From an uncultured bacterium (GTDB lineage: Bacteria > Patescibacteriota > Minisyncoccia > UBA6257 > 2-01-FULL-56-20): a stretch of 64,000 nt of DNA. The notes under the pieces are model-generated. The model made no database searches, was not told the origin of the DNA, and saw only the letters and a list, made by a program, of their open reading frames with translations. The stretch is from assembly GCA_963844965.1 (NCBI GenBank), contig CAWJQC010000007.1, positions 64,001 through 128,000 of the forward strand, in the 5' to 3' direction. The position numbers were made by a program, and so were the translations under genes. Below, in pieces: positions 33,723 to 42,507 of the stretch; the stretch's first letter is position 1, and each line of letters begins with the position of its first letter.

Positions 33723-34436
33723 ATGAACACGCAAAATTTGGACAAGTCCGGGATATGCTTCATCATTCTGCACGGTTTCGCTTCAGATCCCGATCCGCTC
33801 AAGCCTATAAAAAGTTATCTTGAGAAGATCGGATGCGCGGCGATAGCGACAAATTTTTGGGGCGACGGCGTCGTATCCGATTTTTCCAAGTTGAGAATTG
33901 AGCCGTGCATTGAGAATCTTGATTCTTTGGTCAAAAAAGTCAGGAGCAAATGCCGACTTGTGGTTGGTGTCGGTATAAGCCTCGGCGGTTCAATATTGAT
34001 TGAATACGCCAAAAATCATTCAGAATTGGATTATATCGTGAGCGTTGGGACGCCGTTCAGATTAAAGAACAGAAAATTAATATCTATCGGCCTTTTTTTG
34101 CTTCCCATCATCAATCCTGTGTGGAATTTAATAGATAAAATAAAAATATTGAGGTTGCCTCCAATCGGTGCCTCAAAAACAGTTGTGAATTTTTTGGAGA
34201 GGCAATGTTTGGAAAATTTGGACAAAGTAAAGACACCCCTTCTCTTCCTCCATAGCTGCAAGGATCCCATAGCCGATTACAGAGCGGTAGGCGAGTACGC
34301 GGAAAAAATTTTGAACGCGCCCAAAAAGATAATTTTATTTGAGAACGGGAGCCACGAGATAAATTACGATTCGGAAACCATATGCGAGAATATAATGAAA
34401 TTCGTCGGGCTGACGCGAAACGTCAACCGGAAATGA
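33723..34436 (+). CDS. Alpha/beta hydrolase
   Basis: HGF oxyanion motif and GISLGG nucleophile elbow. Confidence 0.7.
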   Translation: MNTQNLDKSGICFIILHGFASDPDPLKPIKSYLEKIGCAAIATNFWGDGVVSDFSKLRIEPCIENLDSLVKKVRSKCRLVVGVGISLGGSILIEYAKNHSELDYIVSVGTPFRLKNRKLISIGLFLLPIINPVWNLIDKIKILRLPPIGASKTVVNFLERQCLENLDKVKTPLLFLHSCKDPIADYRAVGEYAEKILNAPKKIILFENGSHEINYDSETICENIMKFVGLTRNVNRK

Positions 34437-34508
34437 CGCATTTCAGATTCTGGTTGCGGCTGGTCGTTTCGCATTTTTGTATCATGGGCGCGAGAGGTTA
34501 TAATAATA

Positions 34509-35234
34509 GTGATGCTTGAGATAAAAAATCTCGTAAAAAAGTTCGGTCCGGTGGGGGCGGTGAACAAAGTGACGCTTAACGTGAAAGCCGGAGAAATTTA
34601 TGCACTGATTGGGCCGAACGGTTCCGGAAAGACCACGCTTATAAAAACCGTCGCCGGACTTCTGCGGCCGACGGCGGGCGAGGTGCGCGTCGGCGGGGCG
34701 GATGTGAAAAAGGATCCCGCCGCGACAAAACAGCTGATAGGCTATGTTCCGGACGAACCGTCCGTCTGGCCGGCGATGACCGGGGAGGAGTTTTTGCATT
34801 TCACGGGCGCGCTTTTCGGAGTCGCGGAGAACGAACGCGCGAAAAAAATAAGCGGGTTGCTCAAAATTTTCGGCTTGGAAGGAATAGAAAAGGGGTATTT
34901 TGAGGATTATTCCCGCGGCAACAAGCAGAAGTTCACAATTATCGCGGCACTGCTCCATAAACCGAAACTGCTTCTGGTTGACGAACCGATCGTAGGCCTT
35001 GACCCGACATCCGCCGAGGTCGCGAAAAACGAATTCAAGAAATTCGCCGCCGGAGGCGGCGCCGTGCTTCTCGCGACTCACACGCTTCCCGTGGCGCAGG
35101 AGATCGCGGACACTATCGGCGTCTTGAGGGAAGGAAAACTTCTTGCTTCGGCGCCCTTCCCGAAACTCGTTTCGCGGGCCAGGCTCGGGCGTAGCGCCTC
35201 GCTTGAGGATGTGTACCTCGTGCTCACAAAATAA
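34509..35234 (+). CDS. ABC transporter ATP-binding protein
   Basis: GPNGSGKTT Walker A, LSGGQ-like signature, and LLVDEP Walker B. Confidence 0.9.
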   Translation: MMLEIKNLVKKFGPVGAVNKVTLNVKAGEIYALIGPNGSGKTTLIKTVAGLLRPTAGEVRVGGADVKKDPAATKQLIGYVPDEPSVWPAMTGEEFLHFTGALFGVAENERAKKISGLLKIFGLEGIEKGYFEDYSRGNKQKFTIIAALLHKPKLLLVDEPIVGLDPTSAEVAKNEFKKFAAGGGAVLLATHTLPVAQEIADTIGVLREGKLLASAPFPKLVSRARLGRSASLEDVYLVLTK

Positions 35235-36919
35235 TGTTCGCTTATTTACTTCGTTTCCGGTTTTTACAGGCCCGCCGTTATTTCAAAAACAGGCGCCTCG
35301 CCAAGGCCATAACGGCCTTGATCTTCCTCGCAGTCATATTCCTTGTGGCGGTCGGCATCTACGTTTTTTTCCGCTGGGAGTTCCGGCTCACGTCCGCGGA
35401 CCAGTATCTGAAATCCGCCCTGCCTCTCTATCTCTTTGAGTGGCTTTTCTTCGTTGTTTTCGCTCTCGTCGCGGCGAGTGCCTTCGTTACCGGCCTCTTC
35501 ACGCTTTTCCGCGGTGAGAACGACGGCTGGCTCATCGCCTCGCCGAAATTCAAAACTGTTTTCTGGAGCGCTTACGCGAGAATTTTTCTTTCCTCCGTCT
35601 GGCCGCTTTTGATCGTTGCCCTGCCTGCCTTCCTCGGTTTCCGCGCCTCATACAATATCGGACTCGCGGGAATTGCGCTCGGACTTTTGGCAATGGTGTT
35701 TTTGGTCGGATTCGCCGTTTCGCTCGCGGTTTTTATCGTGATGCTTTGCGCGTATATCTTGTCCGTTCCGTCAAAGAAAAATTTTTTGACCATTGGGCGG
35801 GTCGCGCTTCTCGTCGCGCTTATTTTCGTGGCATTCGTTTTCTTCGCCTGGCAGAGGATCGGAACGGCGGATATTTTGAAACTGTTCGCGCCGGTCAGTC
35901 CGTCGTGGAATTTCTCCCGTACAGATGTTATTCTCGGGCAGTTCAGGATTTTCCCGTCGCATCTTGTTGCGCTCACCCTTTTCGCTTTGCAAAATAATCT
36001 GGTGGGTGAGGCGTTTCTCGCGGTTATCCAGCTCGGTGTTATGTTTATTTTGGGATTTCTTCTCGTATGGATTTCGTCCCTGACATATCTGGAGTTGTGG
36101 CAAATTTTGCGCGAGGGGCATCTTCAGGCGAAAACTGCGGTGCGCGGAGTGAGAACGGGGCCGGTTCGCTTCCCGCGGTATTTGAAGAGTCCGCTCGGCG
36201 CGTTCTTTGAAAAGGAAGCGCTCGTCAACTTCCGCGAACTTCGGAACGTCCTTTGGTTCGGTTTTCTCTTTTTCCTCTGGCTCGTGCAGGTGGCGGCCGG
36301 GTTTTTCATCCGCCGCAACATGGTTCATTACGGGACAAGCCAGCTCGCGTCCGTGGCTTTGCTTGAAGCGCTGGAAATAGTCGTCGCGGTTTATTTCGCG
36401 AGCGCCTTCGTTCTGCGCTTCGCTTTTCCTTCGTTCAGCACGGAGCGCAAGACCGCCTGGATCTTCGGCAGCGCGCCTTTGAAGCTTGAAAAAGTTTTTT
36501 TGGCAAAACTTTTGTTTTACGGAGCGGTTTTCATGGCGATGGGGTTAGCCGTGGGCGCCGCGAATTCCTTCATCATCGGCGTTCCTCTCGCGGATGCGGT
36601 GCTATTCCTCTTTTTTGTCGCGCTCGCTATCGCTTTTGTCACCACATTCGGGCTTTGCATGGGAACAGTTTACCCGAATTTTGACACCGACGACCCGGAA
36701 GTTCTGAGCACGTCGCTTGCCGGCCTCGGATTCATTTTCGGCTCGCTCATATACGGCGGCGCGGGCTCGCTTGCGTTCTATGTGTTCCTCGCGGGCGGCG
36801 GCCCGCTTGGCCTCGTCGCTTTCGGAATTTTATCCGTCCTCGGCATCGCGGTGCTTTTGGATTGGGCGTTCCGCTCGCTCCGCACATTTGAATTCGTGAA
36901 AGAAATTTCGGCAGGTTGA
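35234..36919 (+). CDS. Polytopic membrane protein, putative permease partner of the upstream ABC ATPase
   Basis: At least ten hydrophobic helices. Its start codon overlaps the ATPase stop. Confidence 0.6.
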   Translation: MFAYLLRFRFLQARRYFKNRRLAKAITALIFLAVIFLVAVGIYVFFRWEFRLTSADQYLKSALPLYLFEWLFFVVFALVAASAFVTGLFTLFRGENDGWLIASPKFKTVFWSAYARIFLSSVWPLLIVALPAFLGFRASYNIGLAGIALGLLAMVFLVGFAVSLAVFIVMLCAYILSVPSKKNFLTIGRVALLVALIFVAFVFFAWQRIGTADILKLFAPVSPSWNFSRTDVILGQFRIFPSHLVALTLFALQNNLVGEAFLAVIQLGVMFILGFLLVWISSLTYLELWQILREGHLQAKTAVRGVRTGPVRFPRYLKSPLGAFFEKEALVNFRELRNVLWFGFLFFLWLVQVAAGFFIRRNMVHYGTSQLASVALLEALEIVVAVYFASAFVLRFAFPSFSTERKTAWIFGSAPLKLEKVFLAKLLFYGAVFMAMGLAVGAANSFIIGVPLADAVLFLFFVALAIAFVTTFGLCMGTVYPNFDTDDPEVLSTSLAGLGFIFGSLIYGGAGSLAFYVFLAGGGPLGLVAFGILSVLGIAVLLDWAFRSLRTFEFVKEISAG

Positions 36920-37001
36920 TTTTGAGCCGGAAAGGGCAATAATGCAGTGGAGATTTGCGGTTGAGGAAATTTAAAAAGTATGATAAAATAAGAACAACGG
37001 G

Positions 37002-38027
37002 ATGGATAAAAAACAGATTATACAATATATAGAAGGCGCGCGGCACTCGCGCATTATAACCTACCTTACGAGCGACAGGCAGGGGCCGTTTAACGCGCGG
37101 ATAGCGATGGACATTGTGCCGCTTGTGAGCAAACAGCTTCGGAATATAGGGAAAACGCAGAATATAGACCTTTACCTTTATAGTGTGGGCGGGGATACGA
37201 TGGCGCCGTGGCGGCTGGTGTCTATGATCCGCGAATATTGCGACAAATTTTCCGTGCTGGTGCCATATAAAGCGCACAGTGCGGCAACGATGGTTGCGCT
37301 TGGAGCGGATGAAATTGTGATGAGCGACCTTTCGGAGCTTTCGCCGATTGATCCCTCCACCGCGAACGTTTTCAATCCGATTGACCCGGCGAATCCGCAA
37401 AATCGCATTCCGATTTCGGTTGAGGATGTGATGGCATATTTTGAACTGGCAAAAAATAAATTCGGCATAAAAAGCGACGAAGATTTAGCCCGCATATTTA
37501 TGAAATTCGTTGAAGCCAATCCGCAAATTCATCCGCTCGCGCTTGGAAACGTAAACCGCATCCATAACCTTATTCGTATCCTTGCGAAGCGGTTGATCAA
37601 AAGCCACAAAACGCCGCTCAAAGAAGAAGAGGTGGAAAAAATCGTTGATTACTTCACCGAAAAATTATATTCTCACCAGTATTTCATCGGTAGAAAAGAA
37701 GCGAAAGACGATTTGGGGCTTAAAACCGTCGTTGACGCCGACGCCAATCTTTCCAAAGCGATGTCCGACCTCCTGGAGGAATACAACAAAGATTTGGATT
37801 TTGGGAAAATCTGGAATCCCGAAGGCGAATTGGGCGCGAACGCCGTGCAGACCCGAAAGGATTATAAAATTGCCTACATTGAGAGCCGCCAGCTTTCAAA
37901 TTATTATGATATCTCCGTTGAGTACAGAAAACAGCAGGTAAATATGGTCCAACAAACGCCGCAAGGACCAATTCAGGTTCCGCAGGAACAAGTCGGGTTC
38001 AAAATCATCGGGCAAGGGTGGAAATAG
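37002..38027 (+). CDS. ClpP-fold (SDH / S49-like) serine peptidase
   Basis: ClpP/crotonase-fold core LYLYSVGGDTMAPWRLV...YKAHSAATMVALGADEIVMS. No ATPase domain. Confidence 0.6.
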   Translation: MDKKQIIQYIEGARHSRIITYLTSDRQGPFNARIAMDIVPLVSKQLRNIGKTQNIDLYLYSVGGDTMAPWRLVSMIREYCDKFSVLVPYKAHSAATMVALGADEIVMSDLSELSPIDPSTANVFNPIDPANPQNRIPISVEDVMAYFELAKNKFGIKSDEDLARIFMKFVEANPQIHPLALGNVNRIHNLIRILAKRLIKSHKTPLKEEEVEKIVDYFTEKLYSHQYFIGRKEAKDDLGLKTVVDADANLSKAMSDLLEEYNKDLDFGKIWNPEGELGANAVQTRKDYKIAYIESRQLSNYYDISVEYRKQQVNMVQQTPQGPIQVPQEQVGFKIIGQGWK

Positions 38028-38029
38028 CC

Positions 38030-38710
38030 ATGAATTTTTCTGATTACAAGAATTCTATTTTACTGCCCGATCAATCTGCTTGGCAACAGGCGGAGTATTG
38101 GATTACTGAATCGAATATCAATGTTTTCAGCTTTCTTTCCTCTCAAAACGTTTCCATCAAAACTACGAGTTCTTCTGCTAGAGAGCTTTCATTCCAGTCG
38201 TACGTTCAGAATTTGTTTGTCAACGACCTTTCGAATACAGCGTCAGAATTAAATAGTAAGGAATCCTTTGTTTTGTCTTCCATTAATGGCTCTTTGACTT
38301 TTGAAAAATTAAGCCCCTTGGGATTTCCGGCACAAGTTATTCCAGATAAAGAGTTGGGTTCTTTAATAAAATCAAACCAATTTCCACTTTGGGATTCCTC
38401 GCCCTTCTTTTTGAGAATGAAAAGGAATAGGCGCAGTCAAGCTGATATCGAGCATTTTTATCTTGGGAGATATTTACAGAAGAATAAGCAGCCATTTTTC
38501 GTTTTTACAAATGACGACGACCAGATCCGGCAGGCTCAGCTTGAAGGATTTAAATTTATGCGGCCGCCAGACCTTCTGGTGTGGATGGTTAAAGATACGT
38601 TTGTCACGCGACAAAAAGCCGTGTGGGCTTACGAGAAAGCAAAAAAACATAATGCGCGATGGGCGAAAGCAGGCCTAAGATTCAGAGATATTCTGAACAA
38701 GTGTAGGTAA
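38030..38710 (+). CDS. Hypothetical protein, translationally coupled to the ClpP-like peptidase
   Basis: The ATG lies 3 nt after the upstream stop, with a GGTGGA ribosome-binding site. No recognisable domain. Confidence 0.55.
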   Translation: MNFSDYKNSILLPDQSAWQQAEYWITESNINVFSFLSSQNVSIKTTSSSARELSFQSYVQNLFVNDLSNTASELNSKESFVLSSINGSLTFEKLSPLGFPAQVIPDKELGSLIKSNQFPLWDSSPFFLRMKRNRRSQADIEHFYLGRYLQKNKQPFFVFTNDDDQIRQAQLEGFKFMRPPDLLVWMVKDTFVTRQKAVWAYEKAKKHNARWAKAGLRFRDILNKCR

Positions 38711-38775
38711 CTTAGCGCAATGCCCTCTCTTAACTGGATTGGGAAAGAAAAAATCGTAAATCACGACAAAGTTAA

Positions 38776-39795
38776 ATGACCGAGTTGAAAAATCGGACTT
38801 TATATTTCGGCGACAATCTGGAAATCCTACGCGAGAAAATTCCCGACGAGAGTTTTGATTTGATTTACCTTGACCCGCCGTTCAATTCCAACCGTGCCTA
38901 CAATGTAATTTATAAGGAAGGGTTGCAGGACAGCCCGGCACAAATTAAGGCCTTTGAGGATTCTTGGCATTGGACGCCGGAGGCGCAGGCAACTTTTGAG
39001 GAACTTGTCGGCATGCGGCAATCAAGGACGAAAATCAACGCTGACATTGTCAATTTGATGCAGGCGATGGAAAAACTCGTGGGACACAATGATATGCTTG
39101 CGTACCTTACAATGATGACAGTTCGGCTCATTGAACTGCGGCGCGTTTTGAAGTCAACCGGCAGTATTTATCTGCATTGCGACCCGACCGCAAGCCATTA
39201 TTTGAAAATCGTGATGGACACGATTTTCGGAAAACAGAATTTCCAAAACGAAATTATTTGGTGTTATGAAATCGGAGCTAGAAGTAAAACACACTGGGGG
39301 AGTAAACACGATGTAATTCTCTTTTATACAAAATCAGGAAACTTTATCTTTAACACAAGGGCCGTTGCTGTGCCACGGAAAGAAGGGACACACATGAAAA
39401 CCGCAGTAGACGAAGAAGGAAGAGAATATCAAGAAAAGAAGGATGCAAAAAGTGGTAAGGTCTATAGATATTATCTTGATGAAGGCGCCATCCCTCCCGA
39501 TTGGTGGGTGGGAATTCAGCAATTAAATCGTGAAGCACAAGAAAGATTGCATTATCCCACCCAAAAACCCGAAGCGCTTCTGGAAAGAATTATTAAGGCA
39601 TCGTCTAACGGACCTCCGCCAAGTCCTTCGCTGATTGCGACAGAGACAGAGGAGGTGGAGGAGAATAGAGGCGATTGGGTTCTTGACCCGTTTTGCGGTT
39701 GCGGCACGACGGTTGCCGTCGCCGAGCGGCTGAAAAGAAACTGGGTCGGCATTGACCCGCTCCGCCGCAAGCCCCGGCCTTTAGGCCGAGGATAA
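38776..39795 (+). pseudogene. N4/N6 DNA methyltransferase (beta class) whose 3' end is interrupted by an IS200/IS605 element
   Basis: DPPFN motif IV near the N-terminus and DPFCGCGTT motif I near the C-terminus. The reading frame runs into IS sequence after ...NWVGID. Confidence 0.8.
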
Positions 39796-40320
39796 GGCGA
39801 CCCCGTAGCCCCGAGCGAAGCGAGGGGCGGAGGGCTTATTTGCCTGTTCCCACTGGTTTCTGCCGGTGCGATAATGAAGATAATGCCCTCTGGATTCTGG
39901 CCAAGCAACCACAGCTATACGCGATGTTTGTACCACGTTGTTTTCTGCCCAAAGTACCGCCGCTCGATACTGCGAGGGGACATGGTCGGGCGACTCAAGA
40001 CATTGTTCTTTCAAGCCGCCAAGATGAATAAATGGTTCATCCATGAAGCGCAGATAATGCCCGACCATGTCCATCTATTGCTTCAAATTCCTGCTACCCT
40101 GACGGTTGCCAAAGCGGTGTTTTATCTCAAAGGCGGTACGTCCAGGGCTGTCAGAAAAGAATTTCCCGAGCTGGAAGAATTCCTCTGGGGAGACAGCTTG
40201 TGGCAGGATGGTTACTTTGCCGAAACCGTTGGCCGTCAAAACGAAAAAGCGATGAGAGAATATATCAGAAACCAGTGGGAACAGGAGCCGAACACAAGCC
40301 GCGGGCTTTAGCCCGCGGTG
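39757..40320 (+). mobile_element. IS200/IS605-family element (tnpA only)
   Basis: Y1 HuH transposase ORF and subterminal hairpins (CCGCGGGC-TTTA-GCCCGCGG at 40297-40317). A 20-bp inverted repeat CCTGTTCCCACTGGTTTCTG occurs at 39844-39863 and 40266-40285. An ATTGAC hexamer abuts both ends. Confidence 0.75.
39874..40311 (+). CDS. tnpA: IS200/IS605 TnpA (Y1 HuH transposase)
   Basis: YHVVFCPKYRR ... MPDHVHLLLQIP (HuH motif) ... YIRNQ C-terminus. Confidence 0.9.
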   Translation: MKIMPSGFWPSNHSYTRCLYHVVFCPKYRRSILRGDMVGRLKTLFFQAAKMNKWFIHEAQIMPDHVHLLLQIPATLTVAKAVFYLKGGTSRAVRKEFPELEEFLWGDSLWQDGYFAETVGRQNEKAMREYIRNQWEQEPNTSRGL

Positions 40321-40935
40321 ATTGACATTACGATGCTTGCCATCAATTTAATAAAACACCGGCTGATAGACGGCTTGGGAGTGGGACGGAACGAAATATG
40401 CACCGACGGTATTCCAAAGGACTTGAGCGGAGCGGAGGAACTGGCCAAAAAGGACAGATTTGCCTTTGAGTATTGGGTTTTGGATTTGGTGAACGCCGTT
40501 CCGGCGCAAAGCAAGACGAAAGAAAATATGCGCGGCGCGGACAAGGGGATTGACGGCATAATTACCATCGTAAAGTCGGTCAAGGACAATAAAAAAGAGC
40601 TTGGGAAAATTTTGGTTCAGGTGAAAAGCGGCGGCGTCCATCGCGACGACGTAGCCACGCTTAAGAGCGACGTTGAACGGGAAAAGGCCGTCGGCGGCGT
40701 TTTCATCACGCTGGAAAAGCCGACTCAGCCGATGAGAACGGAGGCGGTTGAGGCGGGAACGTTCAGGGTTGACTACTCCCAGGAAAATTTGCCGAAAATT
40801 CAGATTATAACGGTTGAGGACTTGTTGAGCGGCAAGAAACTGGACCTGCCTCCGGCCGTGGCGCTTCAGGAAACCTACTATAAGGAAGCAAAACCTGCGA
40901 AACCCGAAAACAGGGCAAAAAAATTGGGAATATAG
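40318..40935 (+). pseudogene. Mrr-like PD-(D/E)xK restriction endonuclease domain, separated from the methyltransferase by the IS200 insertion (likely the C-terminal part of one fusion protein)
   Basis: FAFEYWVLDLV...GADKGIDGII...ILVQVKSG is the Mrr_cat pattern. The frame is open from the IS end with no ATG (GTG only). Joining ...NWVGID to ITMLAINLIKHRL... gives a typical methyltransferase C-terminal helix. Confidence 0.65.
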
Positions 40936-40941
40936 AATTTT

Positions 40942-41595
40942 ATGAATTTGGATGAATTTAAACTGCAGAATTTGGGCATTGACAAAGAAAAATTCGGAAA
41001 AATTCTCAGCTTTGTAGACTTCGGCAACGTTAATTATTGGTATGAGAAAGACCGGCGCGACTGGGAGGACAACACCATTAAGCCGAATCAAAGATTAATA
41101 ATTGATATCGCAAAACTCGCTCAATTTTTGAATCTTTTCTCTGATCAAAAGCGCTTTTACTACGGATGGCACAAGCGCATGAAGAGATCTTGGCATATTT
41201 TGGTATTGGCGGAGAGAAATGGATTTGTTAAAATTACCAAACCAATACAATTCATAAAGCATTATCTTGAAGAGTTAGAGTTGGCGAGCGCAAACGGGAG
41301 GCTTGTTAAAGAAGACTTGATGGGCAGGTATATTGAAATTCCAAAAAGCAATTTTGATGTAGAGATAAGCGTTGATTCAATTCGTTTGCTGGACAAATAC
41401 AATACATTTTGCTTGCTTTCCGGCGATAGCGATTTTACTTATTTAAACCGATTTTTAAAAAGAAGGGGGAAGAAAATTATTGTTATTGCTGCAGGTCAAA
41501 TACTTCATTCCCTAAAAGAAACCGCGGACTTATATATAAACGCGCAGACAATTAAGGGAAGCATTGCCGCCGTAAAAGAAACCTCGCCCGGTTAA
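40942..41595 (+). CDS. NYN-domain (LabA-like, PIN fold) protein
   Basis: FVDFGNVNYW, DVEISVD and LLSGDSDF acidic motifs. Confidence 0.7.
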   Translation: MNLDEFKLQNLGIDKEKFGKILSFVDFGNVNYWYEKDRRDWEDNTIKPNQRLIIDIAKLAQFLNLFSDQKRFYYGWHKRMKRSWHILVLAERNGFVKITKPIQFIKHYLEELELASANGRLVKEDLMGRYIEIPKSNFDVEISVDSIRLLDKYNTFCLLSGDSDFTYLNRFLKRRGKKIIVIAAGQILHSLKETADLYINAQTIKGSIAAVKETSPG

Positions 41596-41724
41596 GGGCG
41601 AGGTTTGGATATCGGATCCGTCTCCGACGGACAGGGTAGCTTGAGGCTACAAAGTAAGCATAGCATGGGCAATTATTAAAAGTCAATGAACTGTGGATAA
41701 TTAAAGGAGTAATCAAAATACAAC

Positions 41725-42507
41725 ATGTCCCAATATTACAAGCCGAAACGCGGCAGGAATTTATACAATCCGGCGAATCCGGAGCCGTTCGTCGTCAGCC
41801 GTTCCGGCATTGACCTATATATAGAGTGCCCGCGGTGTTTTTATCTGGACAGGCGTCTTGGCACCGCTAGGCCGCCGGGTTTTCCTTTCAGTTTGAACAC
41901 GGCGGTTGATGCTTTGCTCAAAAAAGAATTTGACATCCACCGCGCCGCGAACACGCAGCATCCCTTGATGAAAAAATATGGCATTGACGCCGTGCCCTAT
42001 GCGCACGAAAAGCTGGAAGAGTGGCGCGATTCCCGCCTTCGGGGCATAAAATTTTTCCACGAGCCGACGAATCTCACGATAAAAGGCGGCATTGACGACG
42101 TCTGGGTAAATCCGAAAGGAGAATTGCATATCGTGGATTACAAAGCTACCTCAAAAACATCGGAAGTTAACATTGACGCCGAGTGGCAGAGCGGATACAA
42201 GCGGCAGATGGAAGTTTACCAGTGGCTTTTCCGCAAGAACGGCTTTGATGTTTCCGACATCGGCTATTTCGTTTACTGCAACGGCGACACGGACAAAAAA
42301 GCGTTTGACGCCAAGCTGGAATTTAACGTCAAGGTGATTCCCTACAAAGGAAACGACGGCTGGGTGGAGGAAACGATTCGCGAGGTAAAAAGCTGCCTTG
42401 ATTTTGATGAACTTCCCGCGGCGAACGACAGCTGCGACTGGTGTGCCTACTTCGGCGCGAGAGAACGGCTGGAGAAAGGAAACAGCGACTTTATTGAGAG
42501 CGCGTGA
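41725..42507 (+). CDS. PD-(D/E)xK nuclease with a four-Cys cluster (Cas4/RecB-like)
   Basis: GIDDVWVNPKGELHIVDYKATSK core; N-terminal CPRC and C-terminal CDWC. Confidence 0.65.
   Translation: MSQYYKPKRGRNLYNPANPEPFVVSRSGIDLYIECPRCFYLDRRLGTARPPGFPFSLNTAVDALLKKEFDIHRAANTQHPLMKKYGIDAVPYAHEKLEEWRDSRLRGIKFFHEPTNLTIKGGIDDVWVNPKGELHIVDYKATSKTSEVNIDAEWQSGYKRQMEVYQWLFRKNGFDVSDIGYFVYCNGDTDKKAFDAKLEFNVKVIPYKGNDGWVEETIREVKSCLDFDELPAANDSCDWCAYFGARERLEKGNSDFIESA

What the first reader, a model, noticed from the sequence alone, without database searches (positions are those of the whole stretch)
38776..40935. IS200/IS605 insertion splits an in-frame methyltransferase-Mrr endonuclease fusion
The methyltransferase frame runs ...RNWVGID and then into IS sequence. 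After the IS right-end hairpin the same frame continues ITMLAINLIKHRL... into an Mrr-type PD-(D/E)xK domain with no start codon of its own. Deleting 39757-40320 yields a continuous ~540-aa methyltransferase-REase polypeptide, ...WVGID|ITMLAINLIK.... ATTGAC abuts both IS ends, consistent with Y1-transposase target-site insertion. The restriction half is thus silenced by the IS, while the element can in principle excise precisely.
Basis: seen in the sequence. Interest (0 to 1): 0.7.

Follow-up and report, generated by a model that had tools for sequence, protein, structure and literature searches.

The report
IS200 element splitting a restriction-modification gene
A small, intact-looking jumping gene (570 bp, IS200 type) has landed inside a gene for a one-piece DNA methylase-plus-nuclease defence enzyme in what is probably a Patescibacteria (CPR) bacterium; removing it in silico restores the gene exactly, which makes this a clear but ordinary case of gene disruption by an insertion sequence.

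Summary

1. **Element size.** The element is 570 bp (39757-40326), not 564 bp. Removing it gives ...RNWVGID|ITMLAINLI..., which matches uninterrupted ~500-aa homologs. All 120 listed hits carry PF01555 + PF04471.
2. **ATTGAC is not a target duplication.** TTGAC on the left is the target and left cleavage site. TTGAC on the right is the element's own right cleavage site. Each is read by a CAAG guide next to a subterminal hairpin. Guide and cleavage site co-vary perfectly across 13 related elements.
3. **The break is inside the methyltransferase domain.** It lies 9 residues before the domain end, so both activities are probably hit, not only restriction.
4. **There is a second lesion.** A private 57-bp in-frame insert sits just before the AdoMet-binding motif. 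A sister strain also carries a frameshift.

TnpA (HUH motif and catalytic Tyr) and both ends are intact, so precise excision is mechanistically plausible. ISDra2 is an experimental precedent.

Two contigs from an independent assembly stop exactly at the two ATTGAC copies. That is the pattern expected if occupied and empty alleles coexist.

The most novel side observation is a clade-specific 20-bp inverted repeat, supported by covariation, that links the tnpA leader to the 3' end of tnpA.

Overall this is a new member of a known kind, of low-to-moderate interest.

The parts
38776..39756 (+). 5' part of the methyltransferase-nuclease gene (codons 1-327, ending ...RNWVGID). It carries motif IV DPPF and motif I DPFCGCGTT.
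   Evidence: ORF list and translation. PF01555 E=1.9e-44. Alignment to 15 intact homologs. The natural start is confirmed by homolog N-termini.
39611..39667 (+). Private 57-bp in-frame insert (19 aa, ~GPPPSPSLIATETEEVEEN) between ...KASS and GDWVLDPF. Boundaries are ambiguous by a few nt. Its origin is unexplained.
   Evidence: It appears as a gap in 15/15 aligned homologs and in the DNA of 2 intact genes. 0/108 homologs have more than 3 residues at this position. M.MboIIA also has a gap here. No similar sequence was found elsewhere. It is predicted as low-confidence coil.
39752..39756 (+). Target pentanucleotide and left cleavage site TTGAC. It belongs to the host gene, not to the IS.
   Evidence: Intact genes have a single ATTGAT at this site. 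TTGAC directly precedes the left end in all 12 related loci whose TnpA is >=56% identical, apart from L016, which has TTAAC. It is complementary to the guide.
39757..40326 (+). IS200-type insertion sequence, 570 bp, tnpA only.
   Evidence: In-silico excision restores the homolog sequence exactly. It aligns end to end with 12 related elements of 523-592 bp.
39757..39795 (+). IS-encoded tail of the truncated methyltransferase product (PLRRKPRPLGRG plus stop).
   Evidence: Translation.
39768..39791 (+). Left end: guide CAAG (39768-71) plus subterminal hairpin (39772-39791).
   Evidence: Direct repeat D1 and inverted repeat I21. The pattern is unique to the two ends. The helix is 98% paired with 4 compensatory pairs. 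Guide and cleavage site co-vary.
39802..39834 (+). Second left-end hairpin (core 39808-39828, GCCCCGAGCGAAGCGAGGGGC).
   Evidence: ViennaRNA fold. Relatives carry different sequences with a stem at the same place. Pair counts are weak because the alignment is poor there.
39843..39862 (+). 5' arm of the long-range inverted repeat, in the tnpA leader 11 nt before the ATG.
   Evidence: 20/20 complementary to 40266-40285. Conserved with compensatory changes in relatives.
39874..40311 (+). tnpA, a 145-aa Y1 HUH transposase. Its stop codon lies in the loop of the right-end hairpin.
   Evidence: PF01797 E=9e-39 and NF033573 E=3.3e-38. Alignment to IS608 TnpA shows the HUH motif and the catalytic Tyr are conserved.
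40266..40285 (+). 3' arm of the long-range inverted repeat, inside the last codons of tnpA (..RNQWEQE).
40295..40318 (+). Right end: guide CAAG (40295-98) plus subterminal hairpin (40299-40318).
   Evidence: DNA fold z=-4.15. The helix is 98% paired with 5 compensatory pairs.
40322..40326 (+). Right cleavage site TTGAC, the last five bases of the IS.
   Evidence: Conserved at the 3' terminus of related elements whatever the flank. Complementary to the guide.
40327..40935 (+). 3' part of the gene (codons 328-529 plus stop): the last methyltransferase helix, a linker and the Mrr-type PD-(D/E)xK nuclease domain.
   Evidence: Same frame as 38776. Mrr_cat and NA-iREase1 hits. E375, D399/D403 and Q425-x-K427 are invariant in the 16 aligned sequences. 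Fold matches to the MspJI and AspBHI catalytic domains.

Best explanation
**What it is.** A 570-bp IS200-type insertion sequence (39757-40326, tnpA only) sits inside a 529-codon gene for a single-chain restriction-modification enzyme. The N-terminal part is a beta-class, probably N6-adenine, DNA methyltransferase. The C-terminal part is an Mrr-type PD-(D/E)xK nuclease. This architecture is very common in Patescibacteria.

**How it got there (inferred from the family mechanism).** It inserted by the family's single-strand 'peel and paste' route, 3' of the pentanucleotide TTGAC (39752-56). That site is read by the guide CAAG at the foot of the left hairpin. The element's own last five bases are again TTGAC, read by a second CAAG at the right hairpin.

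**What it does to the gene.**
- Shown: the insertion cuts the protein after residue 327, between strand NWVGID and the next helix, inside the methyltransferase fold.
- Shown: the upstream product is a truncated methyltransferase with a 12-residue IS-encoded tail.
- Shown: the nuclease half is separated from the gene's start.
- Inferred: both activities are lost or crippled.

**Reversibility.** TnpA and both ends look functional. TnpA-catalysed excision would rejoin ...GAC|ATT... with no gain or loss and restore the reading frame. Whether that would restore function is uncertain. The gene also carries a private 57-bp in-frame insert next to the AdoMet-binding loop, and a sister strain has a frameshift.
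For: **In-silico excision and intact homologs**
- Removing 570 bp gives a 529-aa ORF. Its junction GID|ITMLAINLI is identical to that of intact homologs.
- P0001 is 73% identical (BLASTP; 77% in the MAFFT alignment) at 99% coverage.
- All 120 listed hits carry PF01555 + PF04471.
- DNA of two intact genes has a single ATTGAT at the site.

**The element is an IS200-type IS**
- TnpA hits PF01797 and NF033573.
- The HUH motif and catalytic Tyr align to IS608 TnpA.
- The same subterminal hairpin occurs at both ends in direct orientation.
- Both hairpins are 98% paired with compensatory changes.

**Target and cleavage sites**
- TTGAC lies 5' of the left end, and TTGAC is the right terminus, across relatives at unrelated sites.
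- The guide tetranucleotide co-varies in Watson-Crick fashion with the cleavage site. This holds in 13/13 left ends and 11/11 intact right ends, over five site variants.
- This matches the IS608 rules (PMC3201880).

**Position of the break**
- It lies inside Pfam domain 28-336.
- M.MboIIA homology continues past it.
- It sits at a strand/helix boundary in the model.

**Excision and strand context**
- ISDra2 excision from TTGAT restores tetA (PMC2806898).
- Contigs L031 and L030 from run ERR10755942 end and start exactly at 39756 and 40321. These are the last and first bases shared by occupied and empty alleles.
- GC skew places the IS top strand on the presumptive lagging-strand template.
Against: - No uninterrupted copy of this particular gene (>=90% identity) was found. 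The best intact homolog is 73-77% identical.
- No read-level or direct sequence evidence exists for the empty allele or for an excised circle. The contig-end argument rests on how a k=31 de Bruijn assembler breaks contigs.
- The exact TnpA was not found in the same run.
- Loss of methyltransferase activity is inferred from position only.
- In-frame GTG 40318 lies 7 nt after the tnpA stop, and ATG 40333 follows. Some expression of a free C-terminal fragment therefore cannot be excluded.
- The structure model is of modest quality (mean pLDDT 62).
Confidence: 0.85

Rival explanations
1. Only the restriction half is silenced. The truncated 339-aa methyltransferase stays active as an orphan methylase, and excision switches restriction back on, giving a reversible R-M switch.
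For: - The 5' ORF is open and keeps motifs IV and I.
- The break is only 9 residues before the end of the Pfam domain.
- TnpA and both ends are intact.
- Contig ends suggest that occupied and empty alleles coexist.
Against: - The helix after strand NWVGID is conserved in all homologs and in M.MboIIA, and it is replaced here by PLRRKPRPLGRG.
- A 19-aa insert sits right before the AdoMet-binding loop.
- The sister strain has a frameshift at codon ~238. That argues against selection to keep the methylase.
Confidence: 0.2
2. The gene was already dead, or dying, before or independently of the IS. The element landed in, or persists in, a pseudogene, so excision would restore the frame but not the function.
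For: - The private 57-bp insert is found in none of 108 homologs.
- The sister-strain contig L031 has a 1-nt deletion that frameshifts the gene.
- No close intact ortholog is on record.
Against: - Apart from the IS, both halves in the window are open, with no stops over 529 codons.
- All invariant catalytic residues are kept.
- The 57-bp insert is in frame and is predicted to be a surface coil, so it may be tolerated.
- The frameshift could be strain-specific or an assembly error.
Confidence: 0.3
3. The gene is naturally split. The methyltransferase and the nuclease are two separate genes here, and the IS merely sits in the spacer between them.
For: the ORF listing reports a 205-aa ORF starting at GTG 40318.
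Against: - All 120 listed homologs carry both PF01555 and PF04471.
- Of these, 108 match the contiguous motif-I to junction pattern.
- The junction residues GID|ITMLAINLI are part of the methyltransferase domain.
- GTG 40318 lies inside the IS right end.
- The 570-bp removal reproduces the homolog DNA exactly.
Confidence: 0.02
4. The IS junctions are an assembly artefact: a chimeric join at a repeat.
For: An independent assembly breaks at both junctions.
Against: - The junctions have the exact anatomy of a genuine IS200-type insertion. The target TTGAC is on the left and the IS terminus TTGAC on the right. The frame is restored on removal.
- Breaks exactly at the shared hexamer fit allele polymorphism better than a chimera.
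Confidence: 0.03

Closest known systems
IS200/IS605 family, IS200 group (paradigms IS608, ISDra2, IS200)
   Same: - ~140-aa Y1 HUH TnpA with catalytic Tyr.
- Subterminal hairpins in direct orientation, with no terminal inverted repeats and no target duplication.
- The left cleavage site lies outside the IS and 5' of the hairpin. The right cleavage site lies inside the IS and 3' of the hairpin.
- 4-nt guides sit 5' of each hairpin foot (PMC3201880).
- It uses a pentanucleotide target, like ISDra2's TTGAT (PMC2806898).
   Different: - It is only 570 bp. IS200 is about 0.7 kb (from my own knowledge).
- The tnpA stop codon lies in the right hairpin loop.
- Left and right cleavage sites are identical (TTGAC) and so are the guides (CAAG).
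- The right cleavage site is only 3 nt from the hairpin, against 10 nt in IS608.
- It has a clade-specific long-range inverted repeat of 12-23 bp (20 bp here), supported by covariation, that is absent from IS200C, IS1541B and IS200S.
Single-polypeptide restriction-modification enzymes (Type IIG/IIC such as MmeI and Eco57I; Type ISP LlaGI with an Mrr-family nuclease motif)
   Same: - Methyltransferase and nuclease are in one chain.
- An Mrr-family nuclease motif combined with a methyltransferase has a precedent in LlaGI (PMC2790908).
   Different: - Here the methyltransferase is beta-class (PF01555) and N-terminal, and the nuclease is C-terminal.
- There is no helicase, and the protein is only ~500 aa.
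- No member of this architecture was found characterised in the searches made.
- Classical Type IIG enzymes have an N-terminal nuclease and a gamma-class methyltransferase (from my own knowledge).
MspJI / AspBHI / E. coli Mrr catalytic domains (Mrr-like PD-(D/E)xK, D...QxK)
   Same: - Fold match of the C-terminal ~180 residues: 4f0p E=1.8e-4 and 4oc8 E=4.4e-3.
- Mrr_cat Pfam hit.
- Conserved E, D and QxK residues.
   Different: Those enzymes are modification-dependent and pair the nuclease with a methyl-base reader. Here the nuclease is fused to a methyltransferase, so the logic is presumably the opposite: it cuts unmodified DNA.
R-M genes fragmented or inactivated by transposable elements (e.g. 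the Haloferax HVO_A0006 Type IIG fragment flanked by transposase genes)
   Same: A fusion R-M gene is broken into pieces in association with mobile elements (PMC4389544).
   Different: Here the disrupting element is intact, precisely delimited and mechanistically able to leave without a scar.

Membership tests
IS200/IS605 family (IS200 group) | Y1 HUH transposase with the HUH motif and catalytic tyrosine | tested here: met
   PF01797 132.8 bits (cut-off 23) and NF033573 130.8 bits (cut-off 55). DHVHLLL and REYIRNQ align to the HUH motif and Y127 region of IS608 TnpA.
IS200/IS605 family (IS200 group) | Subterminal imperfect palindromes at both ends in the same orientation, with no terminal inverted repeats | tested here: met
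   Direct repeat 39768-91 / 40295-318, each containing a hairpin. The pattern is unique in the window. Both helices are 98% paired with 4-5 compensatory pairs across 13 elements.
IS200/IS605 family (IS200 group) | Insertion 3' of a short conserved target, with no target-site duplication | tested here: met
   Intact genes have one ATTGAT at the site. TTGAC precedes the left end in relatives at unrelated loci, and the right TTGAC is the IS terminus.
IS200/IS605 family (IS200 group) | Guide tetranucleotides 5' of each hairpin foot that base-pair with the cleavage sites | tested here: met
   Watson-Crick covariation between cleavage-site positions 3 and 5 and guide positions 1 and 4. It holds in 13/13 left ends and 11/11 intact right ends over five variants. 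Biochemical pairing was not tested.
IS200/IS605 family (IS200 group) | Active (top) strand on the lagging-strand template | tested here: inconclusive
   GC skew is positive in all 16 bins and the IS top strand is the + strand. This is consistent, but the replication direction is inferred from skew alone.
IS200/IS605 family (IS200 group) | Actual single-strand excision and integration | not testable with these tools
   Only indirect evidence: flank contigs of ERR10755942 stop exactly at the two ATTGAC copies.
Beta-class N6/N4 DNA methyltransferase (PF01555) | Domain match above the curated cut-off, with motif IV (DPPF) N-terminal to motif I (FxGxG) | tested here: met
   152.7 bits against a cut-off of 26.7. 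DPPF is at residues 33-36 and DPFCGCGTT at 304-312. The nearest structures are M.MboIIA, M.RsrI and M.BceJIV.
Mrr_cat / PD-(D/E)xK restriction nuclease (PF04471) | Domain match above the cut-off and catalytic E...D...(Q/E)xK residues | tested here: met
   38.1 bits against a cut-off of 21. E375, D399/D403, Q425 and K427 are invariant in the 16 aligned sequences. Fold hits to MspJI and AspBHI. Nuclease activity was not tested.
Type IIG single-chain R-M enzymes (MmeI/Eco57I type) | N-terminal PD-ExK nuclease followed by a gamma-class methyltransferase and TRD | tested here: not met
   The domain order is reversed and the methyltransferase is beta-class. It works like a single-chain R-M enzyme but is not a member of that lineage.
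Single-chain R-M enzyme (functional class) | Both methylation and cleavage by one polypeptide | not testable with these tools
   The architecture is conserved in all 120 listed homologs. No biochemical data were found.

The most novel reading that the evidence does not exclude
This clade of ultra-compact, TTGAC-targeting IS200-type elements, mostly from Patescibacteria-like sources, has evolved a long-range inverted repeat of 12-23 bp (20 bp here). One arm lies in the tnpA leader and the other in the last codons of tnpA. In single-stranded DNA the two arms would zip the left and right ends together and promote synapsis and excision. In this genome the element would then act as a scarless, reversible on/off switch of a single-chain R-M enzyme that is segregating in the population.
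Probability: 0.2. Interest if true: 0.6.

Novelty: new member of a known kind. Interest (0 to 1): 0.32.

Why it matters
- **As found.** It documents a clean, recent and probably still mobile IS200-type insertion that knocks out a defence gene in a reduced-genome (CPR-type) bacterium. It also gives exact coordinates for ends, guides and cleavage sites.
- **The IS clade.** The related elements form a natural data set in which guide and cleavage-site complementarity is visible by covariation alone. This supports the IS608 model outside the few elements studied biochemically.
- **If the side observations hold.** The allele polymorphism would show R-M systems being toggled by scarless single-strand transposition in uncultivated bacteria. 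The clade-specific long-range inverted repeat would be a new structural feature of IS200 elements that can be tested with oligonucleotide assays.
- **The fusion family.** The ~500-aa beta-methyltransferase-Mrr fusions are very abundant: all 8000 scored candidates reached E<=1e-10. They appear to be uncharacterised.

Tried and rejected
- **Other IS copies in the window:** none found.
- **Exact look-ups not on record:** TnpA (145 and 142 aa), the truncated methyltransferase, and ORF 38018-38707. The IS-bearing contig of ERR10755942 and the source genome could therefore not be retrieved.
- **Exact 31-mer of the right end in metagenome contigs:** no match.
- **Rfam on the whole window:** only tRNA-Asn, with no RNA family on the IS.
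- **The 57-bp insert:** no similarity to the IS, the window or any fetched locus beyond chance 9-12-mers. The 75% complementarity to the IS left end (I2) is judged to be chance. A hairpin is possible but weak (z=-2.07).
- **Tiny ORF 38721-38780 (MPSLNWIGKEKIVNHDKVK):** I suspected a remnant N-terminus of this gene. This is rejected, because no homolog has such an N-terminus and all start 2-5 residues before NRTLYFGDN.
- **Promoter/terminator scan:** one promoter-like site against 2.5 expected, so it is not evidence.
- **Left-end fold energy:** not distinguishable from shuffles. The hairpin is supported by covariation instead.
- **AlphaFold model:** only modest quality (pLDDT 62). I used it only for local secondary structure and the nuclease-domain fold.
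- **PADLOC:** added nothing beyond 'Type II MTase'.
Full report
**1. Observation**

- An ORF starts at 38776 and reads as a DNA methyltransferase up to ...RNWVGID (codon 327 ends at 39756). It then runs into unrelated sequence, PLRRKPRPLGRG, and stops.
- A 145-aa ORF at 39874-40311 is a Y1 HUH transposase: PF01797 E=9e-39 and NCBIfam transpos_IS200 E=3e-38.
- In the same frame as 38776, the sequence ITMLAINLIKHRL... continues to 40935. It hits Mrr_cat (38.1 bits, cut-off 21) and NA-iREase1.
- ATTGAC occurs at 39751-56 and 40321-26.
- The two ends share a 24-nt motif, CAAG plus a GC-rich hairpin, in direct orientation. It occurs nowhere else in the window, and 0 of 100 shuffles gave a match.

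**2. The split gene is one gene elsewhere**

I searched with the protein obtained by in-silico excision.
- All 8000 scored candidates had E<=1e-10. The 120 best are 487-605 aa (nearly all ~490-530) and carry PF01555 together with PF04471.
- The 117 with a reported alignment cover 95-100% of the query.
- Source names, where given, are Patescibacteria lineages: Pacebacteria, Jorgensenbacteria, Staskawiczbacteria, Brennerbacteria and Doudnabacteria.
- In an alignment with 15 of them the junction reads ...RNWVGID-ITMLAINLI..., identical to P0001. P0001 is 73% identical by BLASTP and 77% in the MAFFT alignment.
- After G[IV][DE], the next six residues are ITTLAI, ITMLAI, ITALAI and similar in the 109 homologs matched by the junction pattern.
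- At DNA level, two intact genes (L001, L004) have a single ATTGAT at the site.

The correct excision is therefore 570 bp (39757-40326), and the restored protein has 529 aa.

**3. What the ATTGAC copies are**

IS200/IS605 elements make no target duplication. In IS608 the left cleavage site (TTAC) lies outside the element and 5' of the left hairpin. The right cleavage site (TCAA) lies inside the element and 3' of the right hairpin. Both are recognised by 4-nt guide sequences 5' of each hairpin foot, and excision reseals the donor 'without DNA gain or loss' (PMC3201880).

I collected 25 loci encoding TnpA relatives at 51-69% identity. They include a Candidatus Andersenbacteria genome and a Parcubacteria genome.
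- In every relative with TnpA >=56% identical and an intact left end except L016, TTGAC lies directly 5' of the element, 14-16 nt before CAAG plus hairpin. The flanks are unrelated to one another.
- The elements end with hairpin + 2-3 nt + TTGAC.
- Relatives with variant sites have matching variant guides: TTGAC/CAAG, TTAAC/TAAG, TTTAC/AAAG (the IS608 pair), TTCAC/GAAG and TTCAT/GAAA.
- That is Watson-Crick at two positions in 13/13 left ends and in 11/11 intact right ends.

So in the window TTGAC 39752-56 is the target and left cleavage site, which belongs to the host gene. TTGAC 40322-26 is the element's own right cleavage site. Each is read by a CAAG guide (39768-71 and 40295-98). The apparent direct repeat is a consequence of identical guides. 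It is not a footprint of insertion.

**4. State of the element**

- TnpA aligns over its whole length with IS608 TnpA (E=4e-21). The HUH motif (DHVHLLL) and the catalytic tyrosine (REYIRNQ) are in place.
- Both hairpins are intact. The right one folds with z=-4.15 as DNA. Both are 98% paired with compensatory changes across 13 elements.
- The element is very compact. The tnpA stop codon lies in the loop of the right hairpin.
- GC skew is positive in all 16 bins of the window. By inference, the + strand, which is the element's top strand, is the lagging-strand template. This is the orientation expected for the family.
[quoted passage not shown] Scarless excision is therefore an established property of the family.

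**5. Consequences for the host gene**

- The Pfam methyltransferase domain covers residues 28-336 of the restored protein, and the break is after residue 327.
- Homology to M.MboIIA continues across the break...GRNFIGCDMNAEYVN aligns with ...KRNWVGIDITMLAIN.
- In a modest AlphaFold model (mean pLDDT 62), the break falls between strand 322-327 and helix 329-342.
- The insertion therefore truncates the methyltransferase fold itself. It does not cleanly separate two domains.
- I infer that both activities are lost or crippled.
- The nuclease half keeps the invariant E375, D399/D403 and Q425-x-K427. Its fold matches the MspJI and AspBHI catalytic domains.
- The nuclease half has no conserved start. 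Reinitiation at GTG 40318, 7 nt after the tnpA stop, or at ATG 40333 cannot be excluded.

**6. Further lesions**

- The gene carries a 57-bp in-frame insert at ~39611-39667, encoding 19 aa (GPPPSPSLIATETEEVEEN). It sits between ...KASS and GDWVLDPFCGCGTT, directly before the AdoMet-binding loop.
- The insert is absent from 15/15 aligned homologs, from both intact genes at DNA level, from M.MboIIA, and from 108/108 homologs scanned by motif.
- It has no detectable source and is predicted to be coil. Its origin and effect are unexplained.
- In an independent assembly of a nearly identical strain (Logan, run ERR10755942), contig L031 also has the insert. It carries in addition a 1-nt deletion (GGCGCC to GGCGC at ~39488) that frameshifts the methyltransferase.
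- This suggests the gene is decaying in at least one population. Restoring the frame by excision need not restore function.

**7. Indirect evidence for occupied and empty alleles**

- L031 equals window 34355-39756 and ends exactly at ...GGCATTGAC.
- L030 equals window 40321-41615 and starts exactly at ATTGACATTACG.
- In a k=31 de Bruijn graph a contig stops at the last base shared by two alternative continuations. For an occupied/empty polymorphism those bases are 39756 and 40321, exactly as observed.
- A multi-copy IS would instead leave about k-1 bases of IS sequence on the flank contigs.
- This is inference from contig ends, not read evidence. I put it at roughly 0.6-0.7.

**8. Side observation: a long-range inverted repeat**

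- Window 39843-39862, in the tnpA leader 11 nt before the ATG, is 20/20 complementary to 40266-40285, the codons for ..RNQWEQE.
- Most relatives have a 12-23-nt exact complement at the homologous places, with different sequences. None of 200 shuffles reached the observed length.
- I made a MAFFT alignment of 13 full elements without reference to structure. On it the helix is 94-100% paired and 11 of 20 pairs show changes on both sides. There is a single wobble cell. Pairing drops to 38-59% when the register is slid by 1-3 columns.
- IS200C, IS1541B and IS200S have nothing comparable: their best matches are 6-8 nt, as in shuffles.
- The literature searches I made did not turn up such a feature.
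- The near absence of G:U-type intermediates resembles the two terminal DNA hairpins. My favoured but untested reading is pairing in single-stranded DNA that brings the left and right ends together.
- Alternatives are an mRNA 5'-3' interaction or a shared protein-binding site.

**9. Comparison and verdict**

- The element passes every sequence-level membership test for the IS200/IS605 family, IS200 group.
- The host gene works like a single-chain R-M enzyme. It is not a member of the classical Type IIG lineage, because it has a beta-class methyltransferase at the N-terminus and the nuclease at the C-terminus.
- Mrr-family nuclease motifs in single-chain R-M enzymes have a precedent in LlaGI (PMC2790908). 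Transposon-associated fragmentation of R-M fusion genes has a precedent in HVO_A0006 (PMC4389544).
- The finding is real and well delimited, but it is an ordinary kind of event: a new member of a known kind. Interest is 0.32.
- That score is raised slightly above a routine IS insertion by three things: the possible allele polymorphism, the clean guide/cleavage covariation, and the clade-specific long-range repeat.

Noticed in passing
window 39843-39862 and 40266-40285; A2 columns 109-128 / 541-558 + 586-587: A 20-bp perfect inverted repeat links the tnpA leader to the last codons of tnpA. It is conserved with compensatory changes in relatives (94-100% paired, 11/20 pairs changed on both sides, almost no wobble). 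It is absent from IS200C, IS1541B and IS200S. It may zip the LE and RE together in ssDNA.
   Followed up: partly
window ~39611-39667: A private 57-bp in-frame insert (19 aa, GPPPSPSLIATETEEVEEN) sits directly before the AdoMet-binding motif of the methyltransferase. It is absent from all homologs examined, its source is unknown, and it may form a weak hairpin.
   Followed up: partly
L031 (= window 34355-39756) and L030 (= window 40321-41615), Logan run ERR10755942: Contigs of an independent assembly stop exactly at the two ATTGAC copies, as expected if IS-occupied and empty alleles coexist. L031 also has a 1-nt deletion at window ~39488 that frameshifts the methyltransferase.
   Followed up: partly
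window 39802-39834 (core 39808-39828); A2 columns ~52-87: A second left-end hairpin varies in sequence between related elements while a stem is kept at the same place. L005 and L011 lack it. Its function is unknown; it could be a terminator or a leader structure.
   Followed up: no
window 40309-40333: The tnpA stop codon TAG lies in the loop of the right-end hairpin. In-frame GTG 40318, and ATG 40333 with a GGTGA 12 nt upstream, could allow reinitiation. The product would be a ~200-aa free nuclease fragment.
   Followed up: no
window 39847-39875: This is the only sigma-70-like site in 38500-41200 (TTCCCA-17-GATAAT, with TG). It lies inside the 5' arm of the inverted repeat and overlaps ATG 39874. 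If it is used, tnpA would start at ATG 39883 nearly leaderless. The match is statistically unremarkable.
   Followed up: no
window 38721-38780: A 19-codon ORF, MPSLNWIGKEKIVNHDKVK, overlaps the methyltransferase start (TAAATGA). From memory it resembles N-termini of other PF01555 methylases. No homolog of this gene has such an N-terminus, so it may be a remnant of another gene or a chance ORF.
   Followed up: partly
window 40942-41595 and 41725-42507: Immediately downstream are a NYN-domain protein (PF01936) and a Cas4-like PD-(D/E)XK nuclease (PF12705). Upstream are an SDH-type ClpP-like protease and an unannotated 230-aa ORF. This may be a small defence or mobile island. Intact homologs of the R-M gene sit in different contexts (L001 between greA and an aminoacyl-tRNA synthetase).
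   Followed up: no
L005/L007, L009/L010/L012, L028/L029, L020/L021; L006, L017, L018, L019: Identical or near-identical relatives occur with different flanks, which indicates recent mobility in Patescibacteria-rich metagenomes. Decayed copies also exist. L006 is 5'-truncated and starts right after a TTGAC. L019 lacks the left hairpin. L017 and L018 have lost the right TTGAC.
   Followed up: partly
window 39683-39690 and 39752-39759: TTGACCCG occurs twice: once in the motif-I codons (VLDPF), and once as the target plus the first 3 nt of the IS. A second potential TTGAC target therefore lies 69 bp upstream in the same gene. This is probably chance.
   Followed up: no
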